From the IMG/VR virus record IMGVR_UViG_2861084961_000001: DNA of 64,000 nt. One strand, written 5' to 3'. Shown here piece after piece: positions 10,112 through 64,000 of the stretch. A program made the position numbers and the translations under genes. How positions within the stretch are numbered: the first letter of the stretch is position 1; the number at the start of each line of letters is the position of its first letter. Source of the DNA: a virus. Lineage: Duplodnaviria > Heunggongvirae > Uroviricota > Caudoviricetes. Below the pieces are notes generated by a model. That model worked only from the letters and a program-made list of their open reading frames with translations. It did not search any database and was not told where the DNA came from.

Positions 10112-10186
10112 GATGGTGTAGCTCAGCGGTAGAGCAGTTGGCTGTTAACCAACTGGTCGGTGGTTCGAATCCACCCACCATCGCCA
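10112..10186 (+). tRNA. tRNA-Asn (anticodon GTT)
   Basis: Cloverleaf by eye: acceptor gatggtg/caccatc, anticodon loop ctGTTaa, T-loop ggttcgaat, CCA end. Confidence 0.8.
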
Positions 10187-10191
10187 ATTTA

Positions 10192-10278
10192 GGGGAGTTA
10201 GTCCGTAGAGGTAGCGGTGTAGACTGTAAATCTACTGTCATGGCGACTCGGGTGGTTCGACTCCATCACTCCCCACCA
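10192..10278 (+). tRNA. tRNA-Tyr (anticodon GTA), type II with long variable arm
   Basis: Acceptor ggggagt/actcccc, anticodon loop ctGTAaa, T-loop ggttcgact, CCA end. Confidence 0.75.
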
Positions 10279-10282
10279 AATT

Positions 10283-10358
10283 GCCGGTTTAGCTCAGTTG
10301 GTAGAGCGCCTGCCTTGTAAGCAGGATGTCAGCGGTTCGAGTCCGTTAACCGGCACCA
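10283..10358 (+). tRNA. tRNA-Thr (anticodon TGT)
   Basis: Acceptor gccggtt/aaccggc, D-arm agctcagttggtagagc, anticodon stem cctgc/gcagg with loop ctTGTaa, CCA end. Confidence 0.75.
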
Positions 10359-10582
10359 ATACAACGATAAGATCATTACGGTTAATCGTCGTTCATGTGC
10401 ACAATGACTGGTCGAAAGGTAGTGATCTTACCGTTGTGGTGGATTCGCAGACTGATGCGATAGCTTTCTTGGATGTTAGGGAAATGCGGCCGCAAATCTT
10501 CCCTTTCGCGAGCGGTGATCGTCCGTAGTCCTAATTGGCTGCACCGTATGCCGGAGATTCAGTACCGGCCACCACAACGGCC

Positions 10583-10669
10583 GGAGAGTAGGGAGCATGG
10601 TGCTCAAGCTGTCTTGAAAACCGCCCCATTGCGCAAGCGATGATGGTTCGATTCCATTACTCTCCGCCA
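10583..10669 (+). tRNA. Type II tRNA-like gene, anticodon TGA (Ser?), imperfect stems
   Basis: Acceptor ggagagt/actctcc, loop ctTGAaa, T-loop ggttcgatt, CCA; anticodon stem and variable arm pair poorly, may be non-canonical or pseudo. Confidence 0.5.
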
Positions 10670-12171: not shown

Positions 12172-12381
12172 TTTTAACGGCTCACAGGAGCCGTTTTTAT
12201 TCCCACCAAACTCACTCCTGTTTCCCTTAAAATTCAAAAAACGACGTCTAAATGATTCCATACCTACTATGTATGGAATCATTACTGAAAATGAGTTACT
12301 TTTACTCTTGATCCTATAAGAATCTATGCCTAATATACTGTTTACTTATACAGTGCATCGGCGTAACTCGGTGATTGTCAT

Positions 12382-13483
12382 ATGAAAAATAGCTTTGACA
12401 GAGCACGCGCTGCGGAGAACACCTCAAAAGAGGCGATTGAGTATCTCGAAAGAGCATCTCAAATGCAGGCCGTTATGATCTCCCAGGTCAGCAATGACAT
12501 GAGATTCTCGGACGCATTCATGTTATTCACTCGCTTATCTCTGCTGATAACCAGACGTCGGCCAGAGATCGCTGTTCATTGTATTTTGATACATGTTTTG
12601 CCGCACATTGCTGATGTAAAAGTAAGTGACATTAATAGGTTCATGGTGAACCAACTGGTCAACCCCCTAATACTGGATGGCAAAATTGTTATGGGCCGCC
12701 GCGTTTTCTCTCTGATGAAGCAGTTCCTTAGCTGGTGCGCCTTCCAGGGGATGATAGACGTGTCACCGTTAAACGATATGTCACTAAACAAAGTTGCCGG
12801 TGGCGCAAAGCCCACACCTCGCGAGCGTAAGCTGACCGACGCAGAGGTATGGGTGTTCTGGAATATATGGGACTACTTCAATGTGTGCGCTGGTACAAAA
12901 TGGGCGGCCAGGCTGTGTCTTGTATCAGCAAGACGACCTGACGAAGTACTGCGGGCTAAAAAAGTGAGTTCAATCTTAAGCGTGGAGTTTGGAATCAAGG
13001 CAAGAGAAACAAGTCAGCACGTGAGCATTCGCTGCCTTTAAGCACATTAATGCGCACATGCATTGAAGAGTTGTTCGAATACGGTAAAAACAGCCAGTGG
13101 CTCGTGCCTTCGAATAAAAAATCGGGAAAGACCTTCCTATGTCTAAAGTGGCAATAGCCCAGGCATTACGTCGTATTCTGGAACGACCAGAACTGATGGA
13201 GCTTGAGCCATTTACACCCCGAGATTTGCGCCGTACTGCGCGTAGTTACTTCCCAGCATTAGGCATAAGCCAGGAGGTATCACGCAAAATCATGAACCAC
13301 AGTCTTGAGGGGATAGATCGGGTCTACGACCGGCACGATTATATGGACGAGATGCGAGACGCCTTAGAAAGTTTCTCGACGTACATCGCATCAATCGTAG
13401 AGCAACCGGATTTAGACGAAATTGACCACAAATTCAAGGGAGATCGTCTATCAACAGAGCTTATTCGTGTAAATTTTTCATAG
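12382..13483 (+). CDS. Tyrosine recombinase/integrase (P4-like), frame broken twice (around 13041 and 13139)
   Basis: C-terminal HSLPLSTLMRT..., FTPRDLRRTARSY..., IMNHSLEGIDRVYDRHDY resemble integrase catalytic region (R..H..R..Y); three frames all shifting -1. Confidence 0.6.
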
Positions 13484-14426: not shown

Positions 14427-16534
14427 ATGTCTAAAAAACGTTCCATCAAAGAGGTTCAGGACTTCCGTGACAGTGTAAAACGAGTAGTCGCTCTCCTTTC
14501 AGGTAAAAACATCCCTGTTGCAGAACGAGGGGACGACGCTTATGTACGCTATAACGATGATGGAGAGCCAATTCTCGTAAACATCCCATCAATCCCGGAT
14601 AACGCAACACCGGCATTGATGAATGCTGTGCGCGGATTTCTCGATCATGAGGTTGCTCACATTTTGTTTACCGATATTCGTGTGTCCAACAAAATGAGAG
14701 AAAAAGGACGCGTTCCTTCCTGGTCACTATGGAATGCCTTAGAAGACGTGTTCATCGAGCGAAAAATGGGGCAGGTCTTTAACGGAACGAGACGTAATCT
14801 GATGGCAACTCAGCGCCTTATAATCGAAAAAGTCTTTAAACCAAAGGCTTCAGAGGCTATTGATTATTGTGGCAAAGATCAGCGCGCGCTTTTTCTAAAC
14901 TTCTTTCTCTGTCCGGTTGTAAGAGCCTGGGATGGCCAAGCACCGTTCGTAGATTTCATGGATGAATACTGGCCTGTCATTGAGAAACCAATTTCATTAT
15001 TAAAAGAACATGGTATCGATGTGGCCGTGCGTAACATGTCTTGCACCGAGGATTGTGTAAAGGTGGCTGCGACCATAGCTAAGATCCTCAAAGACACTGA
15101 AAGTGAAAGCAAAGGTAAGGAGTCAGCTCCGGGAAAAACTTCCGATCCTTCAGATACTGACCAAACGGATGCCTCTGGAGAAAACAATGAAGACAACGAA
15201 GATCATGAGACACCCTCAGCGTTAGATAATCACAAATCTATCGAATCAGAATCACACAGTAAGCACAAACATGATAATAACGACAGTGATGATTCAGATA
15301 ATTCTGAATCATCAGAAACAATATTCGATGATACAGAAAATGATAAAGAGGTATCAGATTCTGATGCTTCTGATAACGCGGCGTCAGAATCATTAACCGC
15401 TGACCACGAAAAAAGAAAAACGACAGAAGACGGCTCTTCAGATATTCCAACTCCGTCAAAAATGAGTCTGGAAGAGGCTTTAGAGGAGCTGGATAGCATA
15501 GAAGATGAAGTCGGAGGCATGACAGAAGATGCTCTATCCGAAACGATTAAAAGCGAGTTAACAGAAAGCTCGAAAGCGAATACAGGCCATACAATCGCTC
15601 ATACGACTTCATCGGCTCGATTGATCAGGCAGAAGCCCATATCAAACGGCTTATTAAAACATTCTCCGATATTGATTTAGGAGGATATCCAATCAGCCGC
15701 TATCGCATCGTTCCTGAAGGCAACCAGCTCTTCGACAAATATATTGAAAAGCATCTTTCGTCAGGTGTTTCGTCGACGCTGGCAAAAGACCTGGAGCGAG
15801 CAATAGCAAGCAGAAACAGAGTTCAGTTTATACCGGGCCAGCGTCGGGGGCGCATTCATGGTTCTAGTATCTACAGATTAGCAATGAATGATGATCGCGT
15901 GTTTCGTAAAAAAGAAGAATCTAAAGCCGTTAACGCCTGTGTTCAACAAGTGATTGATTTATCAGGTTCAATGAGTGGTATAACGATACAATTGGCTCTT
16001 GCAAGTGCATATACCATCGCCGATGCCCTTGATCGAATAAATGTTCCCAACATTATCACCGGCTTCACTACATTTGGTAGTCATATGGCGGCAGGAGAAC
16101 TTAAGGCTGTCAAGTATGAGTTCTCTCGCTTTGAATCTTTAATGCTACCTATCATCAAAAATTGGAATGAAAAGGCAAATTCTCGCGAAGTTCGCTCACG
16201 TATGGGGTGCGTAGGCTACACATTCCCACTTCTTAATAACGTGGATGGTGAAAGCATAGCCAGCCTTGCATCGTTATTTTCTGGTCGCATGGAGGACAAG
16301 AAGATCATGCTTGTTCTAAGCGATGGCGCGCCGTGGGCTGTTGGGAGAGGTTTTGACGCTCATTTGCGTTCGGTTGCGAAGCAAATTGAAACGCAGACTG
16401 ACATTGATTTGATGGCAATTGGCATCATGACTGACGCACCGGAGAGATTTTACGCAAACCATGCCCTGGTAACGAGCGTTGATAGTCTTGGTTCATCTGT
16501 AGTTACTGAACTATCTCGTATCATTTTGAAGTGA
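14427..16534 (+). CDS. CobT-like vWA-domain protein with acidic Ser/Asp-rich linker; frame broken near 15550-15600
   Basis: C-terminal vWA MIDAS motif VIDLSGSMSG; long D/E/S-rich low-complexity region; conserved AACAAAGGATTAGCCATG start context; second frame is open upstream of 15884. Confidence 0.6.
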
Positions 16535-16629: not shown

Positions 16630-16902
16630 ATGACTACTACTGCACTGCAAAATGAAAAAAATCCTTCTGATTACCTTGTTTGCAAGTGGTGCGGAAAATC
16701 ATTTCACTATTTTAAGTCCCATGTAGCCAATGGTAATTGCGAGGGCATTCCTGAGTCAGTAAAAGATGCCGATCCTGACACCGTACTGAAAATGTACACA
16801 ACGCAGTTTCCAGATGAGCCAACGCTATCGAAAAAGGCACTTGATGCAATTCAAGCTAAACGTGCCGAGCAAAAAGCGAAATGGCCAAATCATCTGGCGT
16901 GA
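16630..16902 (+). CDS. Small zinc-ribbon-like protein (90 aa)
   Basis: CKWCGKSFHYFKSH...CEG cysteine/histidine cluster; conserved start context. Confidence 0.4.
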   Translation: MTTTALQNEKNPSDYLVCKWCGKSFHYFKSHVANGNCEGIPESVKDADPDTVLKMYTTQFPDEPTLSKKALDAIQAKRAEQKAKWPNHLA

Positions 16903-17864
16903 CCAATAGCCCAGGCTATACAGGCACAGTTGAGTACAAGACAGATCTGGTCGCAGCTCACGAACTGCTAAATGTAACGGTGAAAGAACTCGGAACAAAA
17001 CGTGGGACGCCGCTCATGGTTAGCGTCAACGTCAATACGCCGTTTCCAGAGTTCGTTCCAGAAGTGAAGAAGGGATACGTATATGGCGACTTCGAACTGA
17101 TCAAAGACATTTTCATGATGCTTGAACTTGGCATACCAGGCTATTTGTGGGGTCATGCAGGAACAGGCAAATCTTCATTGCCTACACAACTATGTGCTTT
17201 GCTCAATCGTCCGTTAATCCGTGCCCAACATACAGCATCAATGGAAGAGGCTCATGTTACGGGACAAATTCTGGCGCGTGATGGCTCTACGTATTTCGAG
17301 CCTGGCTTGCTTGCGCTCGCAATGAAGCATGGCTGGGTTTACCTCGCGGATGAATACGACTTTGCGTTTCCACAGATTCTTGGCGTGTATCAGCCAGTGC
17401 TGGAAGGTGAAGCGTTGGTCATCAAAGAGGCGACTCCAGAATGGCGTCGCATTACTCCGCATGAACGGTTTGCTTTCATTGGCACTGGCAACACGAACGG
17501 ATCTGGTGATGAAACCGGCTTGTACCAGGGTACAAACATCCAGAACGCCGCTAACTTTTCGCGTTTTGGCATCGTTTCGAATGTGAAATACATGAGCAAA
17601 GAGGCAGAGATCAACATGTTGATAAATGCCGGCATCGTGGATGAATACGCTGAAAAGATGGTTAAGTTTGCCGGTATCGTTCGCGATGGATACGAAGAAC
17701 ACCTGATCAGTCAGCCGATTGGCCCTCGTGAACTTTTGTTGTCGGCCAAGATTGGAATGATGCGAGGCGACTTTGTGACAGGTATTGAGCGTTCTTTCAT
17801 TAACAAACTCCCTTCAGCTTCTGCGCAAGCGGCACGTGAAGTTGTTCAAAAAATATTTGGTTAA
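16881..17864 (+). CDS. MoxR/CobS-like AAA+ ATPase
   Basis: Walker A GHAGTGKSS, Walker B WVYLADEYD; size and pairing with vWA protein. Confidence 0.75.
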   Translation: MAKSSGVTNSPGYTGTVEYKTDLVAAHELLNVTVKELGTKRGTPLMVSVNVNTPFPEFVPEVKKGYVYGDFELIKDIFMMLELGIPGYLWGHAGTGKSSLPTQLCALLNRPLIRAQHTASMEEAHVTGQILARDGSTYFEPGLLALAMKHGWVYLADEYDFAFPQILGVYQPVLEGEALVIKEATPEWRRITPHERFAFIGTGNTNGSGDETGLYQGTNIQNAANFSRFGIVSNVKYMSKEAEINMLINAGIVDEYAEKMVKFAGIVRDGYEEHLISQPIGPRELLLSAKIGMMRGDFVTGIERSFINKLPSASAQAAREVVQKIFG

Positions 17865-18043: not shown

Positions 18044-21000
18044 ATGAAGGCTCTGATGGTTCGAACTGACTTCTCTCTTGGGGAGTCGGCTCTAAAAGCA
18101 GAAAACGCGGTGAAGATTGCCAGAGAAGCTGGCTACACCGCTGTAATTTCGGCAGATAGCATGAATATTGCGAGTGTTATTCCACTACAACGTGCCGCTG
18201 GTGACGACATGGCGGTTATTTGTGGTGTGAAACTAAACATTGTTGATGATCCCACATACGAGCACCGGGCTAAACTTGCTAAAGAGTCTATGGGATGTAT
18301 GGAATCATTAGAGCGTGGGCGGAACTACTCCTTTACCGCTCTAATTAAAAATGAGCAGGGATATCGAGACATCTGCGAACTAATGACGGCGGCCAACACA
18401 CGAGAACAGTTCTACTTTGTACCGCGTCTCTCGCTCGAACAGTTGGTTTCTACATATGCCAAAGGCAACATCATCCTGCTAACTTCCGACATCGGTAGCG
18501 TGTTCCAACGCAACGATTTTGCAAAAATCATAAGCTCACTGATTACAGCGGGTGGAAAAGACAACTTCTATAGTGTGGTTTATCCGCACCCTACCCATTC
18601 TACGACCAGATTAACGTCCGGGCGATGAAAGTCGCCAGCGCACTGAAAATAGAGCCAGTAGCGTTCTATCCCGCTTATTACGAATCGATCGACGATGCAG
18701 ACATTAAAGACATTGCGCACATGGTTACGAACAACATCAAAATCGACCAGCCGCATCGTCTGCGTATCCCCACCAGCGAGATAACGCCGTCAATTGTCGC
18801 CGCCATCTCCTTGAGGCGCTGAAAGCCTTCTCCGTTCGCATGGATGTGCCGGTAACAGCTGCAATGGCCTCAACAACGCAGGATACCATTATCGATGCCT
18901 GCACATGGCGCTGGCATGAATTGCCACCAGCACTGCCAAAGATGGCAGACGACGAGCCTGCAACTCTGATGAAACTGGCCGTTGCTGGGCTGCGTAAACG
19001 TCTTACCACAAAAGAGTTTGGCTACACACCACCGGCTTCTGAGAACAGGGTTTATGTTGAGCGACTTAAGTACGAAATGGATACGCTGACTCGCCTGGGA
19101 TTCTGTGGTTACTTCCTGATGGTGCGCGATCTGATGAATCATAGTCGTGAAACTGGCATTCCCGTTGGGCCTGGTCGTGGTTCCTCTGCTGGCTCTTTGG
19201 TGGCATGGTGCATAGGCATAACCAACGTCGACCCAATCCGTCACGGTCTTCTGTTTGAACGTTTCATCAACCCTGAGCGTCTCGACTTGCCGGATGCGGA
19301 TTTGGACTTCAGCCAGGCACGTCGCCATGAAGTGATCGAGTATCTGAATGAACGCTACGGCGAAGATTACGTTGCGGGTATTCCGAACTTCACATATCTG
19401 GGCGCAGCCTCTGCACTACGTGACACCGCTCGTATTTATGGTGTGGAGTCCGCAGATATGGCGGTATCAAAGAACTGAAGAACGTCGAGGATGATAGCCT
19501 TCCATTGGAAGAACTGCGCGAACAACTGGCAAGTCTCGACAAATACGCAACAAAATATCCTGATGCATTCAATGCAGCCTGCAAGTTACAAAGCCTTATG
19601 CGTGGCTTTGGTAGACATGCGGCAGGGATGATCGTAGCAGGTGTTCCTCTGACAGAACGTACACCGGTTGAACGACGTGGTGACGCGCGTTGTATCGCAT
19701 TTGACAAGCGTTACTGCGAGGCTATGGGCCTAATTAAGCTGGACGTGCTTGGCCTGGCAACTCTCGATTTGCTCGATAGTGCAAAACGCTACATAAAAGA
19801 GAACACAGGTGAAGATATCAATCTTGATGCCATTTCTCTTGAAGATCGCAAGGTGCTGGATGGTTTTGCTGCTGGGTACACTCAAGGTGTTTTCCAGCTT
19901 GAATCAGGCCCAATGCGCAAGCTGCTTAAAGATTTAGGTGGTGGAATTGAGCCAATGAGCTTTAAAACGGTCGTCGCTACGACTGCGCTCTTCCGGCCGG
20001 GGCCAATTCAGTCAGGCATGTTGGATGACTATGTTTCTGTAGCCAAAGGCTTTATGAAGCCGGAATCATTACACCCCGTTCTTGATGAACTTACCGCAGA
20101 AACAAATGGCGTGATTCTCTATCAGGAACAGACGATGAACGCGACTCGATTGCTTGCTGGCTTCACAATGGCTGAAGCTGACGGTGTTCGTAAAGCGATC
20201 GGCAAAAAGGACATGGAAAAATGAAGAGCATGGGCGAGAAGTTCATCGTTCAGGCTCAAGCTGGCTGGATAGACGTTGAGCTGGAAGATGGCACTACACA
20301 GCGCATTCACCGTGCGGAACATTTTAAATGCGAAGACGGAACTCTGAAAACTGTCGAAGAGGCACTTGAGTACGGCGCAAAACTACCTATAAACGCAGTA
20401 CGCGTTACAGCGTCACATCCAGGGCTATCAGAGATGAAAGCGAAGGAGATCTGGACCGCATTCGAAAAAAATGGAGCCTACCAGTTCAACAAATCACACT
20501 CTGTTGCTTACTCCTTAATCAGTTATCAATCTATGTGGTTGAAAACTCATTATCCCGCAGAGTTTTCGCTGCTGCTCTCACTATTCTTGGCGAAGATAAA
20601 CACCAGGGGCTGGTTAAAGATGCGCTGACCTATGGTATTCGCGTATTGCCACCAGACGTTAACGTGTCATCTAACCGAATCGAGATCCGCACGCTTGAAG
20701 ATGGCAGCCAGGTGCTGTATGCGCCCTTCTCTGCTGTGAAGGGGTGTTCTGAGAATGGCTGCCAGGCCATCATGAGAGCGCGAGAAAGGGTTGGCGGCAA
20801 ATTCGAGTCACTGGCGCAATTCGAAGAAGCTGTCGAGAAACGTGCCTGTAATAGTCGAGTGCGCGAATCACTGCAAAAAGTAGGTGCGTTTGCGTCCATA
20901 GAGCCAGGTAGTCTGCCAGCAACTGATCCAGAGCGTCTCCGCGACCAAGCAGAATTGATGGGAAACCTTGTCATAGATGCAGTTAAAGCCTCACGTCCGT

Positions 21001-21556
21001 TTGAGATGAACCCCAAACGTTCGGCTGAGATTAACGTGCTCATGACACGGATGGCGGCTGAAATGGGCTTAGGTGATGAACTAATCCGCCCAGCATTGGT
21101 ATTAAGCCGAAAATCATGATCATTCTGGACAATGCGAACGGCAATGATGCTCGAACCGGTTACTTCATGGAGAACGGATACGACGATTTTAAGGCCAAGC
21201 TATTGACGGCTGGAGATTTACGCATGGGCGATCTCTATGTCACAGGCGTTTGCAAAAAGGTGAAAGACAAAGAAAAGGACTACACCAAAGACGAGATCGG
21301 CCAGTTCACCGACTTTATGCGTGAAGAGATCAATCTGGTGCGTCCGACCTATGTGCTGACGTGTGGCAGCCGGGCAACGGCATTGTTTAACAACAAAAAC
21401 AAGCCATCCGATTTGGTCGGCAGGAAGGAGTATCTTCCAGACCTTGACGTTACTGTCTTTTACGGGTTTAACCCCAACATTCTTTACTTCAGACCTGAAG
21501 AGGGAGAACGACTAGAAGCGATATTAGCCGACGTAGCAGAAACTATTAAGACGTGA
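18044..21556 (+). CDS. dnaE: DNA polymerase III alpha-like (DnaE-type) replicative polymerase, split into 7 frames by -1 shifts
   Basis: PHP-like N-terminus, [42 protein letters not shown] polymerase core motif; summed length ~1170 aa matches DnaE; consecutive ORFs 18044,18625,18840,19505,20221,20535,21116 each shift frame by -1. Confidence 0.7.
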
Positions 21557-24534: not shown

Positions 24535-25608
24535 ATGGCAAAAGGAAAATCCGCACTGGCACTTGCTCTGAAAAAGAAAATCGGTAGCAACGACGAAATT
24601 CAGAAAGTAACTCATTGGATTGACACAGGCTTTCCTCCGTTAAACAAAGCTATTTCCGGTCGTTACGATGGCGGTTTCCCATGTGGTCGTATCGTCGAAG
24701 TATTCGGGCCGCCAAGCGCGGGGAAAACTTTTTTGGCAACGGCAGCAATGATCTCCGCTCAGAAACAAGATGGCCTGGCGGTATTCCTCGATCATGAGAA
24801 CAGTTTTGACGTTGGCCTGGCTGTCGCCAATGGTCTGAACGCAGATGAGGATGACGGCCAGTGGGTATACAAGCAGCCTGATACCTTCGAAGACTCTGTA
24901 GAGTTGATCGGCACAATACTTAAATTGGTACGTGATGAAGAGCTTATCCCTGAATCAGCACCTATCTGTATCGTGGCTGACTCACTTGCGTCTATGGTTC
25001 CGAACTCCAAAGCCGAGAAGTTCGAAAAGATGGCTGAAGGCACTGCCAAAGACAAAGATCAGCTAAACATGAACGACAATACGGCGCTGGCTCGTGCAAC
25101 GAGTGCGAACTTCCCCACTCTGGCTTTGTGGGCACGCAAATACAACGCCTGCATCATCTTCTTGAATCAGGTTCGCACAAAAATCGGTGTAATGTTTGGC
25201 GACCCTACTACGTCACCAGGCGGCGATTCACCGAAGTTTTACGCTTCTGTGCGCATCCGTCTCGGTGCATCGGTGATGAAGGATGGTAAAGAGAAGATCG
25301 GTCAGGACGTAGGCGCAGAGTGCATCAAAAACAAAGTTGCACCACCGTATGGCAAATGCACCTGGAAATTCTACTTCGATCCTACTCGTGGCCTCGACGT
25401 TATCGAGTCGCTCGTCGAGTACATGCTGGAAGAAGGATACCTGCCAAAGAACGCCAGCGGTCGAGTAGAAATTGGTGACAAGAAATACACCAAATCACAG
25501 ATCGTCGAGATGTATCGGGAGAAGCCACTAGCTGAAATCATTGCAGCTTTACAGGCAATCGACGACCGGAGAGCAAAAGATACCCCCACCGAGTCAGTAG
25601 AAGGGTAA
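24535..25608 (+). CDS. RecA/UvsX-like recombinase
   Basis: GRIVEVFGPPSAGKTFLA Walker A in RecA core context; 357 aa. Confidence 0.85.
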   Translation: MAKGKSALALALKKKIGSNDEIQKVTHWIDTGFPPLNKAISGRYDGGFPCGRIVEVFGPPSAGKTFLATAAMISAQKQDGLAVFLDHENSFDVGLAVANGLNADEDDGQWVYKQPDTFEDSVELIGTILKLVRDEELIPESAPICIVADSLASMVPNSKAEKFEKMAEGTAKDKDQLNMNDNTALARATSANFPTLALWARKYNACIIFLNQVRTKIGVMFGDPTTSPGGDSPKFYASVRIRLGASVMKDGKEKIGQDVGAECIKNKVAPPYGKCTWKFYFDPTRGLDVIESLVEYMLEEGYLPKNASGRVEIGDKKYTKSQIVEMYREKPLAEIIAALQAIDDRRAKDTPTESVEG

Positions 25609-34120: not shown

Positions 34121-35436
34121 ATGACTTTGCCATACGGCGTCATTTCTGACTGCCACTACCACAAATGGGATGCGTTCTCCACGACGAACGCTGAGGGGCT
34201 TAACTCCAGACTTGAAATACAGTTGGAAGCAACGAAAGAAGCAGCCATCGCCATGAAGAAGGCCGGTTGTAAGTACATGTTGGTTGCCGGTGATACATTT
34301 CACGTCCGAGGAACTGTGTCCCCTTCTGTTTTGCATTACGTAACTGAAACGTACAAGTGGATTATCAACGAGCTTGATCTGACAGTAGTAATGCTGGCCG
34401 GTAATCACGATCTTGAAACCAACGATTCAGTATATAGCGCCAACGCAGCAGCATCGCTGAGTTCTATCGGCGTGGTAATCGTATGTGGCAAGCGCCCACA
34501 CTCAATAAAAATTGGTGATGTCACTGTCCACCTGATTAGCTGGCGTAACAATCATGCGGAGCTTATCAGCGATCTGAAAGCATTACGTAAGAGCGTAGAA
34601 GGTGATAATCATGACGTTGTTATCCATACATCCATTAACAAAGCCATTCCAACAATGCCTGACGTCGGTATCGATGCGCAGGAGTTAAAGGATATCGGCT
34701 TTCGTCTCGTGCTTAGTGGGCATTACCACAACCACAAAGAGGTCATTCCTGGAGTTATCAGTGTCGGTGCACTGACCATCAAAATTGGGGAGATGTTGGA
34801 TCTCTGGCTGGTTACATGATCGTAAACCCGGACGGCAGTTTCAGTCACTACGAAACCAGTGCGCCTAAATTCATTAACCTGGAAGATTATGTTGCCGATG
34901 ATCAAATTCGCGGCAACTACGTGCGTTTCCGCGCCGTAATGAGAACGATGAAGAAGGCATTAAGTACCAGAACATCCTCAAAACAATGGGTGCAAAGGTG
35001 TTGTGTGCAACTTCATCCGTAAGTCATCAATGATGGAAGGGACAGCAAGCACAACGGAAACCAGCAAAATCGATAGCCTGGGAGAGTCGGTATCTGCTTA
35101 TTGCAAGATTGTCCACGATACTGACGGCGGATTTGATCTGAGCAAGTTGGATATTTTGTGTCAGGAAATCCTCACCGAAGCGGAGAGTTCGGAGGCTGTG
35201 TGAGGCAAAGTCGTTATGGGAGCTTTCGAGACTTTGCCATCACGATGAAAAGACTTGAACGAGGCCAGACGGTGATGTTTCACAAGCCCTACCCGCCACA
35301 AGGAAATCCCGTAGCGTTTTATCTTGGAAGGTTAACCAGAAAAGGCGTATTGAGGCGCAGATCCTTCCCGGCGCATACGGAGTTCAGATTGAAAGAAGGT
35401 CAAAAGCTAACACACGGTATCAAAGGTGTTATATGA
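34121..35436 (+). CDS. SbcD/Mre11-like nuclease (calcineurin-like phosphoesterase), C-terminal part frame-broken
   Basis: Phosphoesterase motifs DCHYH, AGDTFH, GNHD, GHYH; conserved start context; C-terminal fragments 34816, 35003, 35158. Confidence 0.7.
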
Positions 35437-37346
35437 AGTTTTTAAAACTCCAGGTTGAGAATTTTATGGCTATCGCCAGCGCGGAGGTCGAGTTAGATCA
35501 GCGTGGTTTAGTGCTAATTCAGGGCATTAATAGTGATGATAGTTCCGCATCAAGTAATGGCTCTGGAAAGTCAACTCTAATGAATAGCCTGATGTGGTGT
35601 CTTTATGGCGAAACAGCTCATGGTGTGAAGGGTGACGATGTGTTGTCTACCGACCATGAAAAGAACTGTCGTGTTGCAGTAACCATCGAGGATGAAGGCA
35701 AGAGATATGCGATCATTCGTCACCGTAACACAAAGAGTTCAAAAATCGTCTTATCGTTCGTGGTGAAGATGGCGATATGACGAAAGGCAAAGATGCGCTG
35801 ACGCAGGAGTTCGTCGAGCGTCTGATCGGTGCATCTAAAGAGGTTTTCATGGCTTCCATCTATGCGAGCCAAGAAGCTATGCCAGATCTACCTGGAATGT
35901 CCGACAAAAACCTCAAAACCATCGTAGAAGAAGCCGCTGGCGTTGACAGACTGACACGCGCCTACGCTATTGCTCGTGAACGAGCTAACGCAGCTGCCGC
36001 ACGCATGGACGTGGTTAAAACCAAATTGGAGTCGACAATCTCGACCATTGAGGCAACACAGTCAGAAATTGAGTCCGCGAAAGCCTCCTCTGAATCATGG
36101 GAACAAGAGCGTTCTAAACGTTATGACGATGCCCTAGCTGGGCTGGCAAGTGCCGAAGTTGAGTTAACGGAAGTTGAACTTGAGATCCGCACTCTTCCCG
36201 AACAGATCCGTGATACCGAGAAGGCAATCGAAAGTGAGCGCAAAAAGTTAGCCTCAAAAGAAGAACATGATGCCAAGTTGCTCAAAGTGCGTGGTGCGAT
36301 AACTGATATTCGGGCAAGCATCAAAGCTACAGAAATAGTCAGGCTGATGCAATGAGCCGCGCGCGCAATTTTAAGACCAAAGCAGAAGAGGTTGGTACTA
36401 AAGTAGGATCACCATGCCCTACTTGTGGCAAAGCCTACTGCGAAGAAGATCTATCAACGGTGAAGGAGAATTTCATTGAACAAGCACGTCAGGAAATTGG
36501 TCAGGCGAAGACACTTGCAGAGGCAATGGCTAAACACAAAACGAATCTTGAGAAGGCGTTAAGCATTGAGTCTGCCCTTGTTAAAACGACACCTGATGTA
36601 ACGGCTATCATTGCCCGGATTGAAGAGCTTACTAAACAACTTTCATCTTTGCGTCATCGTGAGAAGGAGGTTGTTGCTATTGAGTCTCTTGTGACTCGTG
36701 CTCGTACTGAGGTCGATCGTATATCAAAAGAGATTAATCCGTTTATTGCTCTTATCGCCAGACACGAAGATAACCTGGTATCCAGTAAGTCTACCTTCAA
36801 GTCCTTAAAAGATGAGTTGAAGGCTATTCAGGAACAAACGTTGCTATTGGAAAAAGCTCGTCAGGTCTACTCTCCTGCCGGGGTGCGTTCTCATATTTTG
36901 ACGTCTGTTACGCCTTTCCTGAATACACGCACTGCCGAGTATCTCAATACGTTGTCTGACGGGAATATTACTGCTGAGTGGTCGACGATGGATGTCACTA
37001 AAAAGGTGAGTATCGCGACAAATTCAACATTAGTGTGCAGAAGAAAGGTTCAAGTAAGTCGTTCCAAACCCTCTCTGGTGGTGAGAAGCGGAAGGTTCGC
37101 ATTGCGTGTTCTTTGGCATTGCAGGATCTGGTTAGTAACCGGGCGAGTAAAAACATCGATTTGTTTATCGGCGACGAAATTGACGATGCACTCGATACAG
37201 CCGGTCTTGAACGCCTCATGGGTATTCTGGAGTCCAAAGCTCGCGAGCGAGGTACTGTGCTGATTATCTCCCATAAAGAGATGAAGTCATGGTTCCGGGA
37301 AACTATTACGCTGGAAGTTAAAGAGGGGCGCAGCTATGTCGTTTAA
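35433..37346 (+). CDS. SbcC/Rad50-like ATPase, split into 4 frames by -1 shifts
   Basis: Walker A GSGKST, coiled-coil, zinc-hook CPTCGK, ABC signature LSGGEKR, D-loop DLFIGDEIDDALD across ORFs 35433, 35777, 36352, 37035. Confidence 0.7.
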
Positions 37347-43408: not shown

Positions 43409-44511
43409 GTGTCACTCCTTTTGAATCGTGAGCATACGAACGGTCAGGTAACAAACGCATCGTATGCAAAAGTTATTGAGACGGTGCTTAAAGCGGCGTG
43501 CAGGCTGATGATCGCACAGGCACTGGTACTTTAAGCACCTGCTACGTTCCCTCTTACTACATGCTTACTGGTGGGACTGTGCCGCTTATTTCTGGAAAGG
43601 CGGTAAATCTTAAGCCACTACTTGTCGAACTTGAGTGGTATCTGAAAGGCACGGGTAACATCCAATTTCTCAAGGATAACGGCGTGAAGATTTGGGACGC
43701 ATGGGCCGATGAGAATGGTGATTTGGGGCCGGTTTACGGCAAGCAGTGGCGTCGCTGGGAAGATACCCGCATCGTGAGCCATAGTGAGTATCTGAGCAAG
43801 ATCGATACGTTCCGTGAACGCGGGTACAAAGTCGAGGGATACCTGGGTATCAGTGAAGATCGCGTAGTGCTGTCCCGTGAAATCGATCAGCTACAGCGTA
43901 TTGTCGATACACTGCGCACGAACCCTACCGATCGTCGCATCATGCTTAACGCATGGAACGTAGGCGAGCTTGAGGATATGAAACTGCCACCTTGCCACTT
44001 TGTCTTCTCTTTGTGGAGTCGTGAGCTTGATTTTGAAACCCGTTTAACGATGGCAACTGACATTGGTCTTCAACACAGTCGCCTCGGTTACGAGTCTATC
44101 TATACCAAGATGCTATACGATCTGGAGATGGTCGGCAGTGTTACTGAAACTGAACTGGATGAACTTGGAATCCCCAAACGCATCCTCAACTCCTGCCTCG
44201 TACAGCGTAGCGTAGACACTTTTGTTGGTATGCCATTCAATATTGCTGGTTATGGCATTCTCACTCATTTTCTCGCGAAGATTACGGGTCACATGGCCGG
44301 TGCCTTTGTGCATTTTGGCTTTGACGTGCATTTGTACAACAACCACATGGAAGGTGTGTGTGAGCTAATGAAACGACAGGCTCCAGAGCATTCAGATCCG
44401 GTCGTTATTTTCCCTCATGAATGGTCAGAGTTGGATGATTTCAAATGGGACGAGGTTCTAATTCTTGGCTATGCCCCTCTACCGTGGATCAAGGTTCCAG
44501 TGGCGGTGTGA
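43409..44511 (+). CDS. thyA: Thymidylate synthase (ThyA-type) with two internal insertions; N-terminal frame break at A-run 43490-43492, start uncertain
   Basis: DRTGTGTLS, WDAWADENGDLGPVYGKQWR, catalytic LPPCHF, PFNIAGY (Asn retained); adding one A at 43490-43492 joins VIETVLK to SGVQADDRTGTGT. Confidence 0.8.
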
Positions 44512-60611: not shown

Positions 60612-60720
60612 GCAATAGTACGATAAAGAGGCCCCATGCTCTTGATGGGGCCTGTAGCAACTAGCGTTATGGACGCTGGTTTACGTACTCAATGATCGCT
60701 TTGATAATCGCGAACATCGG

Positions 60721-61024
60721 CGGCACGATTTTGAACAGTAAGTTAACCATAACAGGCCTCACTTAGTTTTATCGCGCCTAGCTGCAAATACCTTTGGGCT
60801 TGCCTTTGCAGTTGCAATATCTGTAGTCGCCAGATACTTACGGCACGATTTCGAGTTAAGGTAAGGTTTTAGAGTCACCAAAAACCTGGACTTAAATCTT
60901 CTTTGAGAACAACGATGTTTAGTAAATGGTCATTATTACCTGGTATGACCACTCAACGTTTCTTGATGAATCCAGTACATTCGGTTAATCTTAATTCAGT
61001 CGCCAGATACTTATGGCTCAGGAA
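60721..61024. repeat. Interleaved direct repeats: composite agtcgccagatacttacggcacgattt (60825-60851) with its right half repeated at 60721-60731 and left half at 61008-61023
   Basis: Exact 11 bp and 16 bp matches read from sequence. Confidence 0.6.
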
Positions 61025-61049
61025 CAGAGCCGCAAACTCTGTTTCCTTT

Positions 61050-61082
61050 TAAAAAGCCCAGCCTAGTCAACTGGGCTTTTTA
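61050..61082. terminator. Hairpin aaaaagcccagcctagtcaactgggcttttt (bidirectional terminator candidate), preceded by second hairpin ggaacagag...ctctgtttcc
   Basis: GC stem flanked by A-run and T-run. Confidence 0.6.
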
Positions 61083-61379
61083 ATGTCTATTTTTAACCCA
61101 ATGAACCTTCAATACCGCAACATCAGTGTCTTGCGAATTAAGATAGTGTGTATAGGTTATACATGCAAGTGCATAACTCTGTGGATAACTCAGGAAGGAA
61201 AAAGTAGCTTCCGCGCAATTTAGGCCAGACAAGGCTTTCGCAAAAATCAACGGAGAGAAAAAAATTTGTTAAAAATAACGTTTGTTGGAATTGTATATAT
61301 TTATGCCTTTCAATAGTTAGCATCTTATTAACATCTTTTTTAAGAGATAGAGTTCAAAAATATATAGCTTCAACATATA

Positions 61380-61395
61380 CTGTATGCATATACAG
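61380..61395. promoter_or_regulatory. LexA (SOS) box CTGTATGCATATACAG upstream of UmuD'-like gene
   Basis: Perfect CTGT-N8-ACAG palindrome 19 bp upstream of ATG 61414. Confidence 0.8.
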
Positions 61396-61413
61396 TATTA
61401 AGAGGCGAGTATT

Positions 61414-61803
61414 ATGGGCTTCCCTTCTCCTGCGGCGGATTATGCTGAGAGCCGTATTTCTCTTGATCAGCAGATAATTAGACATCCTTCAGCGACCTAC
61501 TTCTTGAGGGCAGCTGATAGCCATCATCGTGAGGGAATATTGCAGGGTGCATTGCTGGTGGTCGATTCCTCACTCACTCCTGTTGATGGATCTCTTCTTG
61601 TATGTGCTCTGGATGGGGAATATCGCGTAAAAAGATACCGGAAGTATCCACGTCAGCATCTGGAGGATTTAAGAACTGGTAAGAAGGAAGCATTGCCAAA
61701 GGATGATGATGGATGCACGGGCAGCAATGCCGTGTTTGGTGTGATCACTCACATTATCAACGACGCAAGAAGTGGCGAGTTTGATGATTGTCCTGTGATG
61801 TAG
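61414..61803 (+). CDS. UmuD'-like protein (HumD-like; starts at the position corresponding to the UmuD self-cleavage site)
   Basis: MGFPSPAADYAESRISLDQQIIRHPSATYF matches UmuD residues ~25 onward; Ser-containing ADS motif; no umuC-like gene follows. Confidence 0.7.
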   Translation: MGFPSPAADYAESRISLDQQIIRHPSATYFLRAADSHHREGILQGALLVVDSSLTPVDGSLLVCALDGEYRVKRYRKYPRQHLEDLRTGKKEALPKDDDGCTGSNAVFGVITHIINDARSGEFDDCPVM

Positions 61804-61815
61804 GAGAACTGTTTA

Positions 61816-61839
61816 GGTGGTGCATTGCACCACCTTTTT
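61816..61839. terminator. Bidirectional terminator hairpin ggtggtgcattgcaccacc + T-run between convergent umuD'-like and mrp
   Basis: 9 bp stem with T-run on plus strand and A-run equivalent on minus strand. Confidence 0.65.
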
Positions 61840-61840
61840 A

Positions 61841-62941
61841 TCACACTGCGCGGAATGCGATTTCGCCAGGTATTACTTCACCTTGCCAATACATTTGGGC
61901 AGCAACGCGATCTGCGAGGTCACGATAAATAGCCGTAAATTCGCTATCTGGACGACTAATAACGGTTGGTGTTCCGTTATCCAGATCCTCACGAAGAGAG
62001 ATATGAAGTGGCATTTGGCCTAACAACTGCGTGTTGTATTTCTCGGCCAGTTTCTGTGCGCCACCGGTGCCAAAAATTGGCTCGTGATGACCGCAGTTAC
62101 TGCAAATATGCACACTCATGTTTTCGACGATACCTAGTACCGGCACTTCGACTTTTTCGAACATCACAATGCCTTTCTTCGCATCGATCAGCGCGATGTC
62201 TTGCGGCGTAGTTACCACAACCGCACCAGTTACAGGAATGTTCTGCGCCAGCGTCAATTGAATATCACCAGTGCCCGGCGGCATATCGAGAACGAGATAG
62301 TCCAGATCAGGCCACAGTGTTTCCTGCAACATCTGCATCAGCGCCTTGCTGGCCATCGGTCCACGCCACACCATTGCATTGTCGTCGGTGACCAGATAAC
62401 CAATAGAGTTGGTTGCCAGGCCATGAGACATGATAGGTGCCATGTGAGTACCGTCCGGTGAGGTTGGACGTTGGTTTTCCGCACCCAGCATGGTTGGAAT
62501 TGATGGACCGTAGATATCGGCATCCAAAATACCAACTTTCGCACCTTCAGCAGCCAACGCCAGTGCCAAGTTTACTGCTGTGGACGATTTGCCTACACCG
62601 CCCTTGCCTGAGCTGACGGCGATGATGTTCTTAACGCCATTAATGCCTGGTTGGTTTTTGACGCGCTTAAGCGTGGCAATGTTGTACGACAGCTTCCAGT
62701 CGATAGCCTTTGCGCCAGTGATACGGAGCAGATCACCACTACATTGCTCTTTCAGGTCTTCAAAAGGCTTATTCCACACGAAAGGCATGATTAGTTCGAC
62801 ATGCAGTGTGTCATCCATCAACGCAACATGGTGTAACGCTTTAAGCGTAGTCAGGTTGTGCTTCAGGGTTGGGTGCTGAAAATTAGCCAGCGTACCGGCT
62901 ACCATTGCTCTCAGGGCATCCGGCGATTTGGACTCGCTCAT
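61841..62941 (-). CDS. apbC: Fe-S cluster carrier ATPase ApbC/Mrp
   Basis: 366 aa; P-loop GKGGVGKS, CxxC; chromosomal gene divergent from metG as in E. coli. Confidence 0.9.
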   Translation of the reverse strand: MSESKSPDALRAMVAGTLANFQHPTLKHNLTTLKALHHVALMDDTLHVELIMPFVWNKPFEDLKEQCSGDLLRITGAKAIDWKLSYNIATLKRVKNQPGINGVKNIIAVSSGKGGVGKSSTAVNLALALAAEGAKVGILDADIYGPSIPTMLGAENQRPTSPDGTHMAPIMSHGLATNSIGYLVTDDNAMVWRGPMASKALMQMLQETLWPDLDYLVLDMPPGTGDIQLTLAQNIPVTGAVVVTTPQDIALIDAKKGIVMFEKVEVPVLGIVENMSVHICSNCGHHEPIFGTGGAQKLAEKYNTQLLGQMPLHISLREDLDNGTPTVISRPDSEFTAIYRDLADRVAAQMYWQGEVIPGEIAFRAV

Positions 62942-63098: not shown

Positions 63099-64000
63099 AT
63101 GACCCAAGTCGCGAAGAAAATTCTGGTGACGTGCGCGCTGCCGTACGCTAACGGCTCAATCCACCTCGGCCATATGCTGGAGCACATCCAGGCTGATGTC
63201 TGGGTTCGTTACCAGCGAATGCGCGGCCACGAGGTTAATTTCATCTGTGCCGACGATGCCCACGGTACGCCGATCATGCTGAAAGCACAGCAGCTTGGTA
63301 TCACACCGGAACAGATGATTGGCGAAATGAGCCAGGAACACCAGACTGATTTCGCAGGCTTTAACATCAGCTATGACAACTATCACTCGACGCACAGCGA
63401 AGAGAACCGCCAGCTGTCTGAGCTTATCTATACTCGCCTGAAAGAGAACGGTTTTATTAAAAACCGCACTATCTCTCAGTTGTACGACCCGGAAAAAGGC
63501 ATGTTCCTGCCGGATCGTTTTGTGAAAGGCACCTGTCCGAAATGTAAAGCGCCAGATCAATACGGCGATAACTGTGAAGTTTGCGGCGCGACCTACAGCC
63601 CGACTGAACTGATTGAGCCGAAATCGGTAGTTTCTGGCGCTACGCCGGTAATGCGTGATTCTGAACACTTCTTCTTTGATCTGCCCTCTTTCAGCGAAAT
63701 GTTGCAGGCATGGACCCGCAGCGGTGCGTTGCAGGAGCAGGTGGCAAACAAAATGCAGGAGTGGTTTGAATCTGGTCTGCAACAGTGGGATATCTCCCGC
63801 GACGCACCTTACTTCGGTTTTGAAATTCCGAACGCGCCGGGTAAATATTTCTACGTCTGGCTGGACGCACCGATTGGCTACATGGGTTCCTTCAAGAATC
63901 TGTGCGACAAGCGCGGCGACACTACCAGCTTCGATGAATACTGGAAGAAAGACTCCACCGCCGAGCTGTACCACTTCATCGGTAAAGATATCGTTTACTT
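63099..64000 (+). CDS. metG: Methionyl-tRNA synthetase (5' portion, continues beyond window)
   Basis: [43 protein letters not shown] with HLGH motif and zinc knuckles CPKC...CEVC; essentially identical to E. coli MetG as recalled. Confidence 0.95.

What the first reader, a model, noticed from the sequence alone, without database searches (positions are those of the whole stretch)
61378..61803. Pre-truncated UmuD'-like gene under a perfect LexA box
The ORF begins MGFPSPAADY, the position of the RecA-mediated cleavage site in UmuD, so it encodes a constitutively active UmuD' form. It is preceded by a consensus SOS box CTGTATGCATATACAG, and no umuC partner follows. From memory, phage P1 HumD is a similarly truncated UmuD' analogue, so this probably belongs to the element and would modulate host translesion synthesis during the SOS response.
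Basis: partly seen in the sequence, partly recalled or inferred. Interest (0 to 1): 0.55.

Follow-up and report, generated by a model that had tools for sequence, protein, structure and literature searches.

The report
Phage-plasmid HumD gene with LexA operator
This is an ordinary, already catalogued copy of humD, a phage gene for a ready-made (pre-cleaved) UmuD' subunit of the error-prone DNA polymerase V. It sits behind an SOS (LexA) operator on an SSU5-type phage-plasmid of E. coli, and about one in eight complete E. coli genomes carries such a gene.

Summary
A 129-codon ORF (61414-61803, +) begins MGFPSPAADY, and its Met1-Gly2 aligns with Cys24-Gly25 of E. coli UmuD. A 20-nt LexA operator, TACTGTATGCATATACAGTA (61378-61397), matches the consensus at 18 of 20 positions; no shuffle in 100 gave such a match. 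It overlaps the -10 of a TTCAAA-17-TATACT promoter. A Shine-Dalgarno sequence and an intrinsic terminator complete a one-gene unit. No umuC homologue exists in the window or in the related complete phage genome Cyrano.

The protein is 91% identical to phage P1 HumD. It scores 217.7 bits (cut-off 120) on NCBI's HumD equivalog model, and RefSeq already names near-identical alleles 'HumD family translesion DNA polymerase'. The carrier is an E. coli SSU5-like phage-plasmid (Cyrano/pLF82 type). The neighbouring apbC and metG genes belong to that element, not to a chromosome.

dN/dS against P1 is 0.05, and 94 of 97 family representatives start MGFPSPA.

The only unexplained point is a nearly invariant HumD-specific C-terminal tail, EFDDCPV[MIL]-COOH. 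It aligns in register with the SSB C-terminal tip, DFDDDIPF-COOH.

The parts
61353..61381 (+). Sigma-70-type promoter candidate TTCAAA (-35, 61353-61358), 17-nt spacer, TATACT (-10, 61376-61381)
   Evidence: Consensus scan, 9 of 12 matches. The scan is not significant on its own: 3 sites were found in the region against 4.5 expected. The site is credited only because its -10 overlaps the LexA operator and it sits 33 nt upstream of the ATG.
61378..61397 (.). LexA operator (SOS box) TACTGTATGCATATACAGTA
   Evidence: 18 of 20 match to the E. coli consensus, the only such site in the window, and 0 of 100 shuffles reproduce it. A LexA 20-mer sits 34-39 nt upstream of the ATG in P1, P7, SJ46, RCS47, D6, PhiR41_1, Cyrano, pMB3825A_2 and N15. 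The P1, P7 and phiKO2 records annotate it as a LexA binding site.
61400..61405 (+). Shine-Dalgarno sequence AAGAGG, 8 nt before the ATG
   Evidence: Read directly from the sequence.
61414..61803 (+). humD coding sequence, 129 aa plus stop; a UmuD'-like protein lacking the N-terminal arm and cleavage site
   Evidence: NCBIfam NF051876 HumD equivalog, 217.7 bits, 1-129/129. Pfam Peptidase_S24. PHROG 811 'UmuD-like'. PDB UmuD' 1umu, E=6.8e-23. 91% identity to P1 HumD. dN/dS 0.05 against P1.
61815..61841 (+). Intrinsic terminator: 9-bp stem AGGTGGTGC/GCACCACCT, 3-nt loop, then TTTTT; it abuts the 3' end of the convergent apbC
   Evidence: Terminator scan and the sequence itself. apbC ends at 61841.

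Best explanation
The feature is a self-contained, one-gene SOS cassette (promoter, LexA operator, ribosome-binding site, humD, terminator). It is carried as accessory cargo by an E. coli SSU5-like phage-plasmid.

Proposed mechanism:
- In undamaged cells, host LexA binds the operator. The operator overlaps the -10 hexamer and the likely transcription start, so the gene stays silent.
- After DNA damage, RecA* drives LexA self-cleavage and humD is transcribed.
- The product is made directly in the UmuD' form, without the 24-residue N-terminal arm. It therefore skips the slow RecA*-dependent UmuD-to-UmuD' cleavage that normally delays polymerase V assembly.
- As a dimer it pairs with the host chromosomal UmuC, since the element has no UmuC of its own. 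Together with RecA* this forms a Pol V-like translesion polymerase, which raises damage tolerance and mutagenesis while the element is in an SOS-induced cell.

Shown here: the anatomy, orthology to P1 HumD, purifying selection, absence of umuC, and conservation of the operator across HumD loci.

Taken from the literature on P1 HumD, and recalled rather than read because the primary paper is not held: complementation of UmuD', dimer formation, and binding of UmuC and RecA filaments.

Inferred: that this allele behaves the same way, and that LexA actually represses it.
For: - Family and orthology: HumD equivalog at 217.7 bits against a cut-off of 120, full length. 91% identity to P1 HumD and 44% to UmuD, with Met1-Gly2 aligned to UmuD Cys24-Gly25.
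- Conserved truncated start: MGFPSPA in 94 of 97 cluster representatives, all 126-130 aa long.
- Purifying selection: dN/dS 0.05-0.08 against P1, RCS47 and D6, and 0.02 against Cyrano.
- Operator: 18 of 20 match, 0 of 100 shuffles. It is positionally conserved in 10 of 11 phage HumD loci even though its inner bases differ. It is also present at -35 to -41 in the distant Aeromonas, Hafnia and Pantoea homologues.
- Travels as a unit: DNA homology to P1-type humD loci starts 0-10 bp before the operator and ends at the stop codon, that is 61369/61378 to 61802.
- No UmuC: none in the window, and none named among the genes listed for the Cyrano genome.
- Annotation: RefSeq names near-identical alleles HumD family.
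Against: - No experiment exists for this allele or for any SSU5-type element.
- The promoter call is not statistically significant by itself.
- As I recall it, P1 HumD complemented well only from a high-copy plasmid and is poorly expressed (McLenigan 1999; the paper is not held). Its natural role may therefore not be bulk mutagenesis.
- P1 humD is dispensable for lytic growth in a CRISPRi screen (PMC10695390).
- The strongly conserved C-terminal tail, absent from UmuD', has no place in the simple 'UmuD' surrogate' model.
Confidence: 0.82

Rival explanations
1. HumD is mainly a modulator of replication or recombination rather than a Pol V subunit. On this view its conserved acidic C-terminal tail (EFDDCPVM-COOH), which resembles the SSB C-terminal tip (DFDDDIPF-COOH), docks onto proteins that normally read the SSB tip, or onto RecA or polymerase surfaces. 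That would redirect or compete with host genome-maintenance enzymes during SOS, to the benefit of the extrachromosomal element.
For: - The tail is nearly invariant in the family: E122 and D124 in 97 of 97, F123 in 96, D125 in 94, P127 in 96, and the last residue M, I or L in 95.
- It is absent from UmuD.
- It persists in the Aeromonas (EWDDLPVI) and Hafnia (EFDDNPCM) homologues, which have lost both residues of the Ser/Lys dyad.
- It aligns with the E. coli SSB tip without gaps when counted from the C-terminus, with F-D-D identical.
- The element encodes its own RecA, a gp32-like SSB, DnaE and an epsilon-like exonuclease.
Against: - The resemblance covers 8 residues, was noticed after the fact, and differs at the positions considered critical in SSB. 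The penultimate Pro and terminal Phe become Val and Met.
- The Pantoea phage G19 homologue lacks the tail.
- P1 HumD does complement UmuD' (title of McLenigan 1999), so the Pol V role is real whatever the tail does.
Confidence: 0.1
2. It is a LexA-like or phage-repressor-like S24 peptidase, as annotated in the Cyrano and some NCBI records, that regulates the lysogeny-lysis decision of the element.
For: - Pfam Peptidase_S24 hit.
- Cyrano annotates it as 'LexA-like peptidase S24', and several database entries say 'LexA family transcriptional regulator'.
- The Ser36/Lys73 dyad is present in this allele.
Against: - There is no DNA-binding domain. The 129 residues cover only the catalytic and dimerisation domain.
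- The lexA model scores 29 bits against a cut-off of 110.95.
- There is no cleavage-site region.
- The nucleophile position is Thr or Ala in 44 of 97 relatives.
- Both dyad residues are lost in distant members.
Confidence: 0.03
3. It is a decaying 5'-truncated remnant of a umuDC operon whose ATG is accidental.
For: It has no umuC partner. The window contains many frameshifted genes.
Against: - The start is identical in 94 of 97 representatives.
- It has its own operator, ribosome-binding site and terminator.
- dN/dS is about 0.05.
- A family-specific C-terminal extension has been gained, not lost.
- P1 HumD is functional.
- The frameshifts elsewhere are single-base deletions in homopolymer runs, typical of assembly error, and none touches humD.
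Confidence: 0.02

Closest known systems
Bacteriophage P1 HumD (P1_gp103, YP_006569.1)
   Same: - Both are 129 aa and 91% identical, with the same MGFPSPAADY start and the same C-terminal tail.
- A LexA operator lies 36-39 nt upstream of the ATG.
- Neither has a umuC partner.
- Both are carried by a phage-plasmid.
   Different: - The carrier is an unrelated phage-plasmid lineage: an SSU5-like siphovirus with its own DnaE and RecA, against the P1 myovirus.
- The neighbours differ. Here a convergent apbC and then metG lie downstream, and an 800-bp ORF-poor stretch lies upstream. In P1 the flanks are lxr/hot upstream and phd-doc downstream.
- The operator's inner bases differ, and this operator is closer to consensus (2 against 3 mismatches).
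E. coli UmuD / UmuD' (Pol V accessory subunit)
   Same: - The S24 fold is recognisable at sequence level (1umu, E=6.8e-23).
- The sequence is 44% identical over the UmuD' part.
- The Ser/Lys dyad positions are retained in this allele.
- The LexA operator is of equal quality, with 2 mismatches.
   Different: - There is no N-terminal arm of 24 residues and no Cys-Gly cleavage site, so no RecA*-dependent activation step.
- It is not in an operon with umuC.
- It has a 4-residue insertion and a 10-residue C-terminal extension.
- It scores below the cut-off of the UmuD subfamily model (86.6 against 110).
N15 gp26 / phiKO2 gp23 and the lambdoid and P22-like phage UmuD-like proteins (HK140, HK639, BTP1, mEp234)
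   Same: They share the truncated architecture, the start and the C-terminal tail at 60-70% identity. The LexA operator in phiKO2 is identical in sequence to the one here.
   Different: In those phages the gene is often paired divergently with a dinI homologue and sits beside sopAB or an integrase. The nucleophile Ser is replaced by Thr in N15 and phiKO2.
Plasmid and ICE polymerase V operons (mucAB, impCAB, rumAB, samAB)
   Same: They are mobile-element-borne, LexA-controlled UmuD homologues (PMC7092418; PMC11541004).
   Different: Those encode full-length, cleavable UmuD-type proteins together with their own UmuC-type polymerase. Identity to the protein here is only about 38-48%.

Membership tests
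HumD family (NCBIfam NF051876, equivalog) | Scores above the curated cut-off over the full model length | tested here: met
   217.7 bits against a cut-off of 120; protein 1-129 matches model 1-129 of 129.
HumD family (NCBIfam NF051876, equivalog) | Translation starts at the position of the UmuD cleavage site (Met-Gly-Phe-Pro-Ser-Pro-Ala), with no N-terminal arm | tested here: met
   Met1-Gly2 aligns with UmuD Cys24-Gly25. An in-frame stop lies 4 codons upstream. 94 of 97 relatives start MGFPSPA.
HumD family (NCBIfam NF051876, equivalog) | Stand-alone gene with no cognate umuC-type polymerase gene in the operon or element | tested here: met
   A terminator follows directly after the stop, and the next gene is a convergent apbC. 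tblastn with UmuC finds nothing in the window or in the Cyrano sequence searched.
HumD family (NCBIfam NF051876, equivalog) | LexA operator in the promoter region | tested here: met
   An 18-of-20 consensus 20-mer lies 36 nt upstream of the ATG. Binding itself was not tested.
HumD family (NCBIfam NF051876, equivalog) | HumD-specific C-terminal extension ...DARxGEFDDCPV[MIL] | tested here: met
   Present as DARSGEFDDCPVM and nearly invariant in the family.
HumD family (NCBIfam NF051876, equivalog) | Functionally replaces UmuD': dimerises, binds UmuC and RecA filaments, restores SOS mutagenesis | not testable with these tools
   Known only for P1 HumD (McLenigan et al. 1999, cited; the paper itself is not held).
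UmuD proper (NCBIfam NF007621 subfamily; autoproteolytic subunit of Pol V) | Scores above the model cut-off | tested here: not met
   86.6 bits against a cut-off of 110.
UmuD proper (NCBIfam NF007621 subfamily; autoproteolytic subunit of Pol V) | N-terminal arm with a Cys/Ala-Gly self-cleavage site | tested here: not met
   The arm is absent; the protein begins at the Gly of the cleavage site.
UmuD proper (NCBIfam NF007621 subfamily; autoproteolytic subunit of Pol V) | Ser-Lys catalytic dyad | tested here: met
   Ser36 and Lys73 align with UmuD Ser60 and Lys97. The Ser is Thr or Ala in 44 of 97 relatives, so the dyad is not a constrained feature of the HumD family.
UmuD proper (NCBIfam NF007621 subfamily; autoproteolytic subunit of Pol V) | Operon with umuC | tested here: not met
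LexA / phage CI-type repressors (TIGR00498 and relatives) | N-terminal DNA-binding domain joined to the S24 domain; score above cut-off | tested here: not met
   29 bits against a cut-off of 110.95. Only model positions 91-166 are matched, and no residues are available for a DNA-binding domain.

The most novel reading that the evidence does not exclude
The HumD family's nearly invariant C-terminal tail, [ED]-[FW]-D-D-x-P-[VC]-[MIL]-COOH, may be a functional mimic of the SSB C-terminal tip (D-F-D-D-D-I-P-F-COOH). The tail is absent from UmuD'. It is retained even in distant members that have lost the Ser/Lys dyad. If it is a mimic, phage HumD proteins would plug into, or compete within, the SSB interaction network, for example to bring UmuC to SSB-partner sites or to displace host enzymes. 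That would make them more than pre-cleaved UmuD'.
Probability: 0.08. Interest if true: 0.55.

Novelty: already known. Interest (0 to 1): 0.15.

Why it matters
It matters little as a discovery. HumD has been known from phage P1 since the 1990s, has a dedicated NCBI protein-family model, and is annotated by name on hundreds of E. coli plasmids.

The check does correct the reading of the locus. The carrier is an SSU5-type phage-plasmid, and apbC-metG are part of it, so this is not a prophage-chromosome junction.

The check also shows that the operator-plus-humD unit has been exchanged between unrelated temperate phages (P1-like, SSU5-like, N15-like, lambdoid) as a compact cassette. Because about 12% of complete E. 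coli genomes carry such a gene, its real contribution to SOS mutagenesis is still worth an experiment. That includes mutagenesis induced by antibiotics such as ciprofloxacin. The role of the conserved C-terminal tail is equally worth testing.

Tried and rejected
1. I considered that stand-alone humD is a signature of the phage-plasmid lifestyle, because P1, N15/phiKO2 and SSU5-like elements all carry it. This was rejected. tblastn finds full-length HumD-like genes in integrating lambdoid and P22-like phages (HK140, HK639, BTP1, mEp234) and in Hafnia and Aeromonas phages that carry integrases.

2. I considered that apbC-metG mark a chromosomal flank, so that humD would sit at a prophage end. 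This was rejected. The same humD-apbC-metG arrangement lies inside circular 100-120-kb plasmids and inside phage genomes. This copy is only about 88% identical to the chromosomal apbC-metG.

3. An AlphaFold2 model built from the 97-sequence family alignment gave mean pLDDT 45 and pTM 0.33. The alignment is too shallow, so I discarded the model and ran no fold search. The fold assignment rests on the sequence match to solved UmuD' structures.

4. The primary papers, McLenigan 1999 (PMC94175) and Lobocka 2004 (PMC523184), are not in the library. Their content is used only through titles, citing sentences and record annotations, or is marked as recalled.

5. An Rfam scan of the window found only tRNAs and nothing near humD. 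Pfam found nothing in the two small ORFs of the 800-bp upstream gap.

6. I asked whether Klebsiella HumD (P0051, on a 108.6-kb contig) represents SSU5-like elements in another genus. It does not. That context is phiKO2-like, with TelK, SopAB and a divergent DinI.

7. The bare CTGT-N8-ACAG motif is not significant in 64 kb. Only the 20-mer comparison is.

Full report
**What is in the sequence.** The ORF runs from 61414 to 61803 on the + strand. It encodes 129 residues beginning MGFPSPAADYAESRISLDQQ. An in-frame TAA four codons upstream (61399-61401) excludes a longer N-terminus.

The bare CTGT-N8-ACAG pattern is not informative: 2 were found against 0.99 expected. The full 20-mer is. TACTGTATGCATATACAGTA (61378-61397) differs from the E. 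coli LexA consensus TACTGTATATATATACAGTA at two central positions. It is the only match in the window at up to 3 mismatches, and it never appeared in 100 shuffles. Counted the same way, the E. coli umuDC operator also has two mismatches.

A promoter-like TTCAAA-17-TATACT lies at 61353-61381, and its -10 overlaps the operator. The scan by itself is not above chance. AAGAGG sits 8 nt before the ATG. A 9-bp GC-rich hairpin followed by TTTTT (61815-61835) comes 12 nt after the stop and abuts the end of a convergent apbC gene. The unit is thus a compact monocistronic cassette of about 490 bp.

**What the protein is.**
- Pfam gives Peptidase_S24 and PHROGs gives 'UmuD-like protein'.
- NCBIfam gives the HumD equivalog model NF051876 at 217.7 bits (cut-off 120), end to end (1-129 of 129). 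The UmuD subfamily model (86.6 against 110) and the LexA model (29 against 110.95) both fall below their cut-offs.
- Against solved structures, the best matches are UmuD' (1umu, E=6.8e-23) and full-length UmuD (8gmt_B). In 8gmt_B, residue 2 of the query aligns with residue 25.
- A direct alignment shows 91% identity to P1 HumD, also 129 aa, and 44% to E. coli UmuD. Met1-Gly2 lies opposite Cys24-Gly25.
- Ser36 and Lys73 occupy the positions of the UmuD Ser60/Lys97 dyad.

**What carries it.** The first 25 kb of the window match Escherichia phages CMS-2020a, Cyrano and PhiR41_1 at 96-97% identity, and Salmonella phage SSU5 at 80%. The humD region matches the same phages at 93-97%. In complete E. 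coli genomes it lies on circular plasmids of 100-120 kb. Cyrano is the phage-plasmid pLF82 of E. coli LF82, an SSU5-like siphovirus that forms virions (PMC9928086).

The order humD, then apbC on the opposite strand, then metG is the same inside Cyrano, PhiR41_1 and plasmid pMB3825A_2. The apbC and metG genes are therefore cargo, not a chromosomal junction. This copy is about 88% identical to the chromosomal apbC-metG that every E. coli has, and 95-99% identical copies occur on 222 plasmid records.

No product among the genes listed for Cyrano is a Y-family polymerase. tblastn with E. coli UmuC finds nothing in the window and only E>0.1 noise in Cyrano. The element does encode its own DnaE-type polymerase, an epsilon-like exonuclease, a gp32-like SSB, UvsY, UvsW, SbcCD and RuvC. 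It also encodes a true RecA (PF00154, 145.8 bits, window 24535-25608).

**Is it a working gene?** Nei-Gojobori estimates give dN/dS of 0.05 against P1 (dS 0.90), 0.06-0.08 against RCS47 and D6, and 0.02 against Cyrano. A search of the large protein collection found 555 relatives at E<=1e-10. The best 120 are spread over Escherichia, Citrobacter, Klebsiella, Enterobacter, Salmonella, Kluyvera and Trabulsiella, and many are already named 'HumD family translesion DNA polymerase'. Of the 97 sequences aligned (this protein and 96 cluster representatives, all 126-130 aa), 94 begin MGFPSPA. The truncated start is therefore the conserved, selected state and not an accident of decay.

**The operator travels with the gene.** A LexA 20-mer with 1-4 mismatches lies 34-39 nt upstream of the ATG in Cyrano, pMB3825A_2, PhiR41_1, P1, P7, SJ46, RCS47, D6 and N15, and 64 nt upstream in phiKO2. 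The P1, P7 and phiKO2 records annotate it as a LexA site. Boxes are also present at -35 to -41 in the distant homologues of Aeromonas phage pAEv1818, Hafnia phage Pocitis76 and Pantoea phage G19.

DNA similarity between the window and P1-type loci starts 0-10 bp before the operator and ends at the stop codon, that is window 61369/61378 to 61802 at 83-85% identity. Sequences further upstream and downstream are unrelated. The exchanged module is thus operator plus gene.

Within the SSU5-like group two upstream variants exist. The window, Cyrano and pMB3825A_2 share one. PhiR41_1 has a P1-like one.

**Mechanism.** LexA represses the cassette, and SOS induction releases it. The product is born in the UmuD' form and so does not need RecA*-mediated cleavage. 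It works with the host's UmuC.

[quoted passage not shown] The title of McLenigan et al. [quoted passage not shown] I recall from that paper that HumD forms dimers, binds UmuC and RecA filaments, and complements best at high copy number. The paper is not held here, so these details are from memory. humD is described as LexA-regulated in PMC9603915. It is non-essential for P1 lytic growth (PMC10695390).

'Constitutively active' is too strong. Only the cleavage step is bypassed.

**How common it is.** The cassette (61378-61803) matches 672 of 5,426 complete E. coli genomes over at least 80% of its length. There are 691 matching places on plasmids and 141 on chromosomes, and the chromosomal hits that were listed are short partial matches. 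Annotations are 'HumD family translesion DNA polymerase' or 'S24 family peptidase'. A translation 100% identical to this one is on plasmid NZ_CP081792.1. The feature is therefore already known.

**What does not fit the simple picture.** The last ten residues, which UmuD lacks, are the most conserved part of the family. E122 and D124 are invariant. F123, D125, C126, P127 and V128 are present in 90-96 of 97 sequences, and the terminal residue is M, I or L in 95.

By contrast, the nucleophile position is Ser in 53, Thr in 42 and Ala in 2. In the Aeromonas and Hafnia homologues neither dyad position keeps Ser or Lys. Yet the tail is kept there, as EWDDLPVI and EFDDNPCM.

Counted from the C-terminus, EFDDCPVM aligns without gaps with the E. 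coli SSB tip DFDDDIPF. That tip is the hub of SSB's protein interactions (PMC5872125 abstract). This is an eight-residue resemblance noticed after the fact, and it could not be tested here. I record it as the most novel reading not excluded, with low probability.

**Rejected ideas and dead ends.**
- HumD is not specific to phage-plasmids.
- The locus is not a prophage-chromosome junction.
- The gene is not a repressor, because it has no DNA-binding domain.
- It is not a decaying fragment.
- The AlphaFold model was too poor to use (pLDDT 45).
- Rfam found only tRNAs.

**Verdict.** The feature is an already known and widespread gene family in a known kind of element, so interest is low.

Noticed in passing
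window 61841-62941 (-) and 63101-64000 (+, runs off the window): apbC (mrp) and metG are carried by the phage-plasmid itself, so the host cell has a second copy of each. This copy is only about 88% identical in DNA to the chromosomal apbC-metG present in all 5,426 E. coli genomes. Copies 95-99% identical to it occur on 222 plasmid records. The same arrangement is in Cyrano, PhiR41_1 and pMB3825A_2. It is not known why a temperate phage-plasmid keeps a methionyl-tRNA synthetase and an Fe-S carrier.
   Followed up: partly
window 7203-8524, 12382-13480, 14427-16534, 16630-17864, 18044-21556, 35433-37343, 43409-44511: Relative to phage Cyrano, several long genes are split by frameshifts: ligase, integrase, cobT-like, cobS-like, dnaE, sbcC and thyX. 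Most of the shifts are single-base deletions in A, C or G homopolymer runs. That pattern is typical of uncorrected long-read assembly error rather than real pseudogenes. humD is not affected.
   Followed up: partly
window 12336-12355: A second, weaker LexA-like box, TACTGTTTACTTATACAGTG (16 of 20, with intact CTGT/ACAG cores), ends 26 nt upstream of the ATG (12382) of the integrase-family gene. It is identical in Cyrano. SSU5 itself has no annotated integrase in the corresponding stretch. It might place a recombinase under SOS control. Close relatives alone cannot show conservation.
   Followed up: partly
window 24535-25608 (+); L006 5065-7404 (Cyrano): The element encodes a genuine RecA (PF00154, 145.8 bits). 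It is uninterrupted here (357 aa). Cyrano's copy (779 aa) carries an intein with a LAGLIDADG homing-endonuclease domain, inserted after about residue 76. An element-borne RecA next to a LexA-controlled HumD could influence SOS induction and Pol V activation. This was not explored.
   Followed up: partly
window 61777-61800 (HumD residues 122-129) and alignment A2: The HumD-specific C-terminal tail EFDDCPV[MIL]-COOH is nearly invariant. It is retained in Aeromonas and Hafnia homologues that have lost the Ser/Lys dyad. It is in register with the SSB tip DFDDDIPF-COOH. Its function is unknown.
   Followed up: partly
alignment A2, column of window HumD Ser36 (codon at 61519-61521): The residue equivalent to the UmuD nucleophile Ser60 is Ser in 53, Thr in 42 and Ala in 2 of 97 HumD representatives. 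The Lys97 equivalent is kept in 96 of 97. So peptidase activity is probably not what selection maintains.
   Followed up: yes
window 61378-61397; L013 1436-1455 (phiKO2): The 20-nt operator here is identical in sequence to the annotated LexA site of Klebsiella phage phiKO2. The flanking DNA and the spacing to the ATG differ (36 against 64 nt), and the closest relatives (Cyrano, pMB3825A_2) differ from it by 1-2 inner bases. This is probably convergence on a near-consensus site.
   Followed up: no
window 60612-61352: About 740 bp upstream of the humD promoter has no ORF longer than 61 codons. It contains a promoter-like site (60680-60708, +) and a terminator-like hairpin (61060-61077, +). It has no Rfam match, and its small ORFs have no Pfam match. 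The stretch is shared with Cyrano but replaced by other genes in PhiR41_1. It could hold a small RNA or a small protein gene.
   Followed up: no
window 10112-10669: A cluster of four tRNA genes (Asn-GTT, Tyr-GTA, Thr-TGT, Ser-TGA). Cyrano is annotated with three (Asn, Thr, Ser) and SSU5 with one in this stretch.
   Followed up: no
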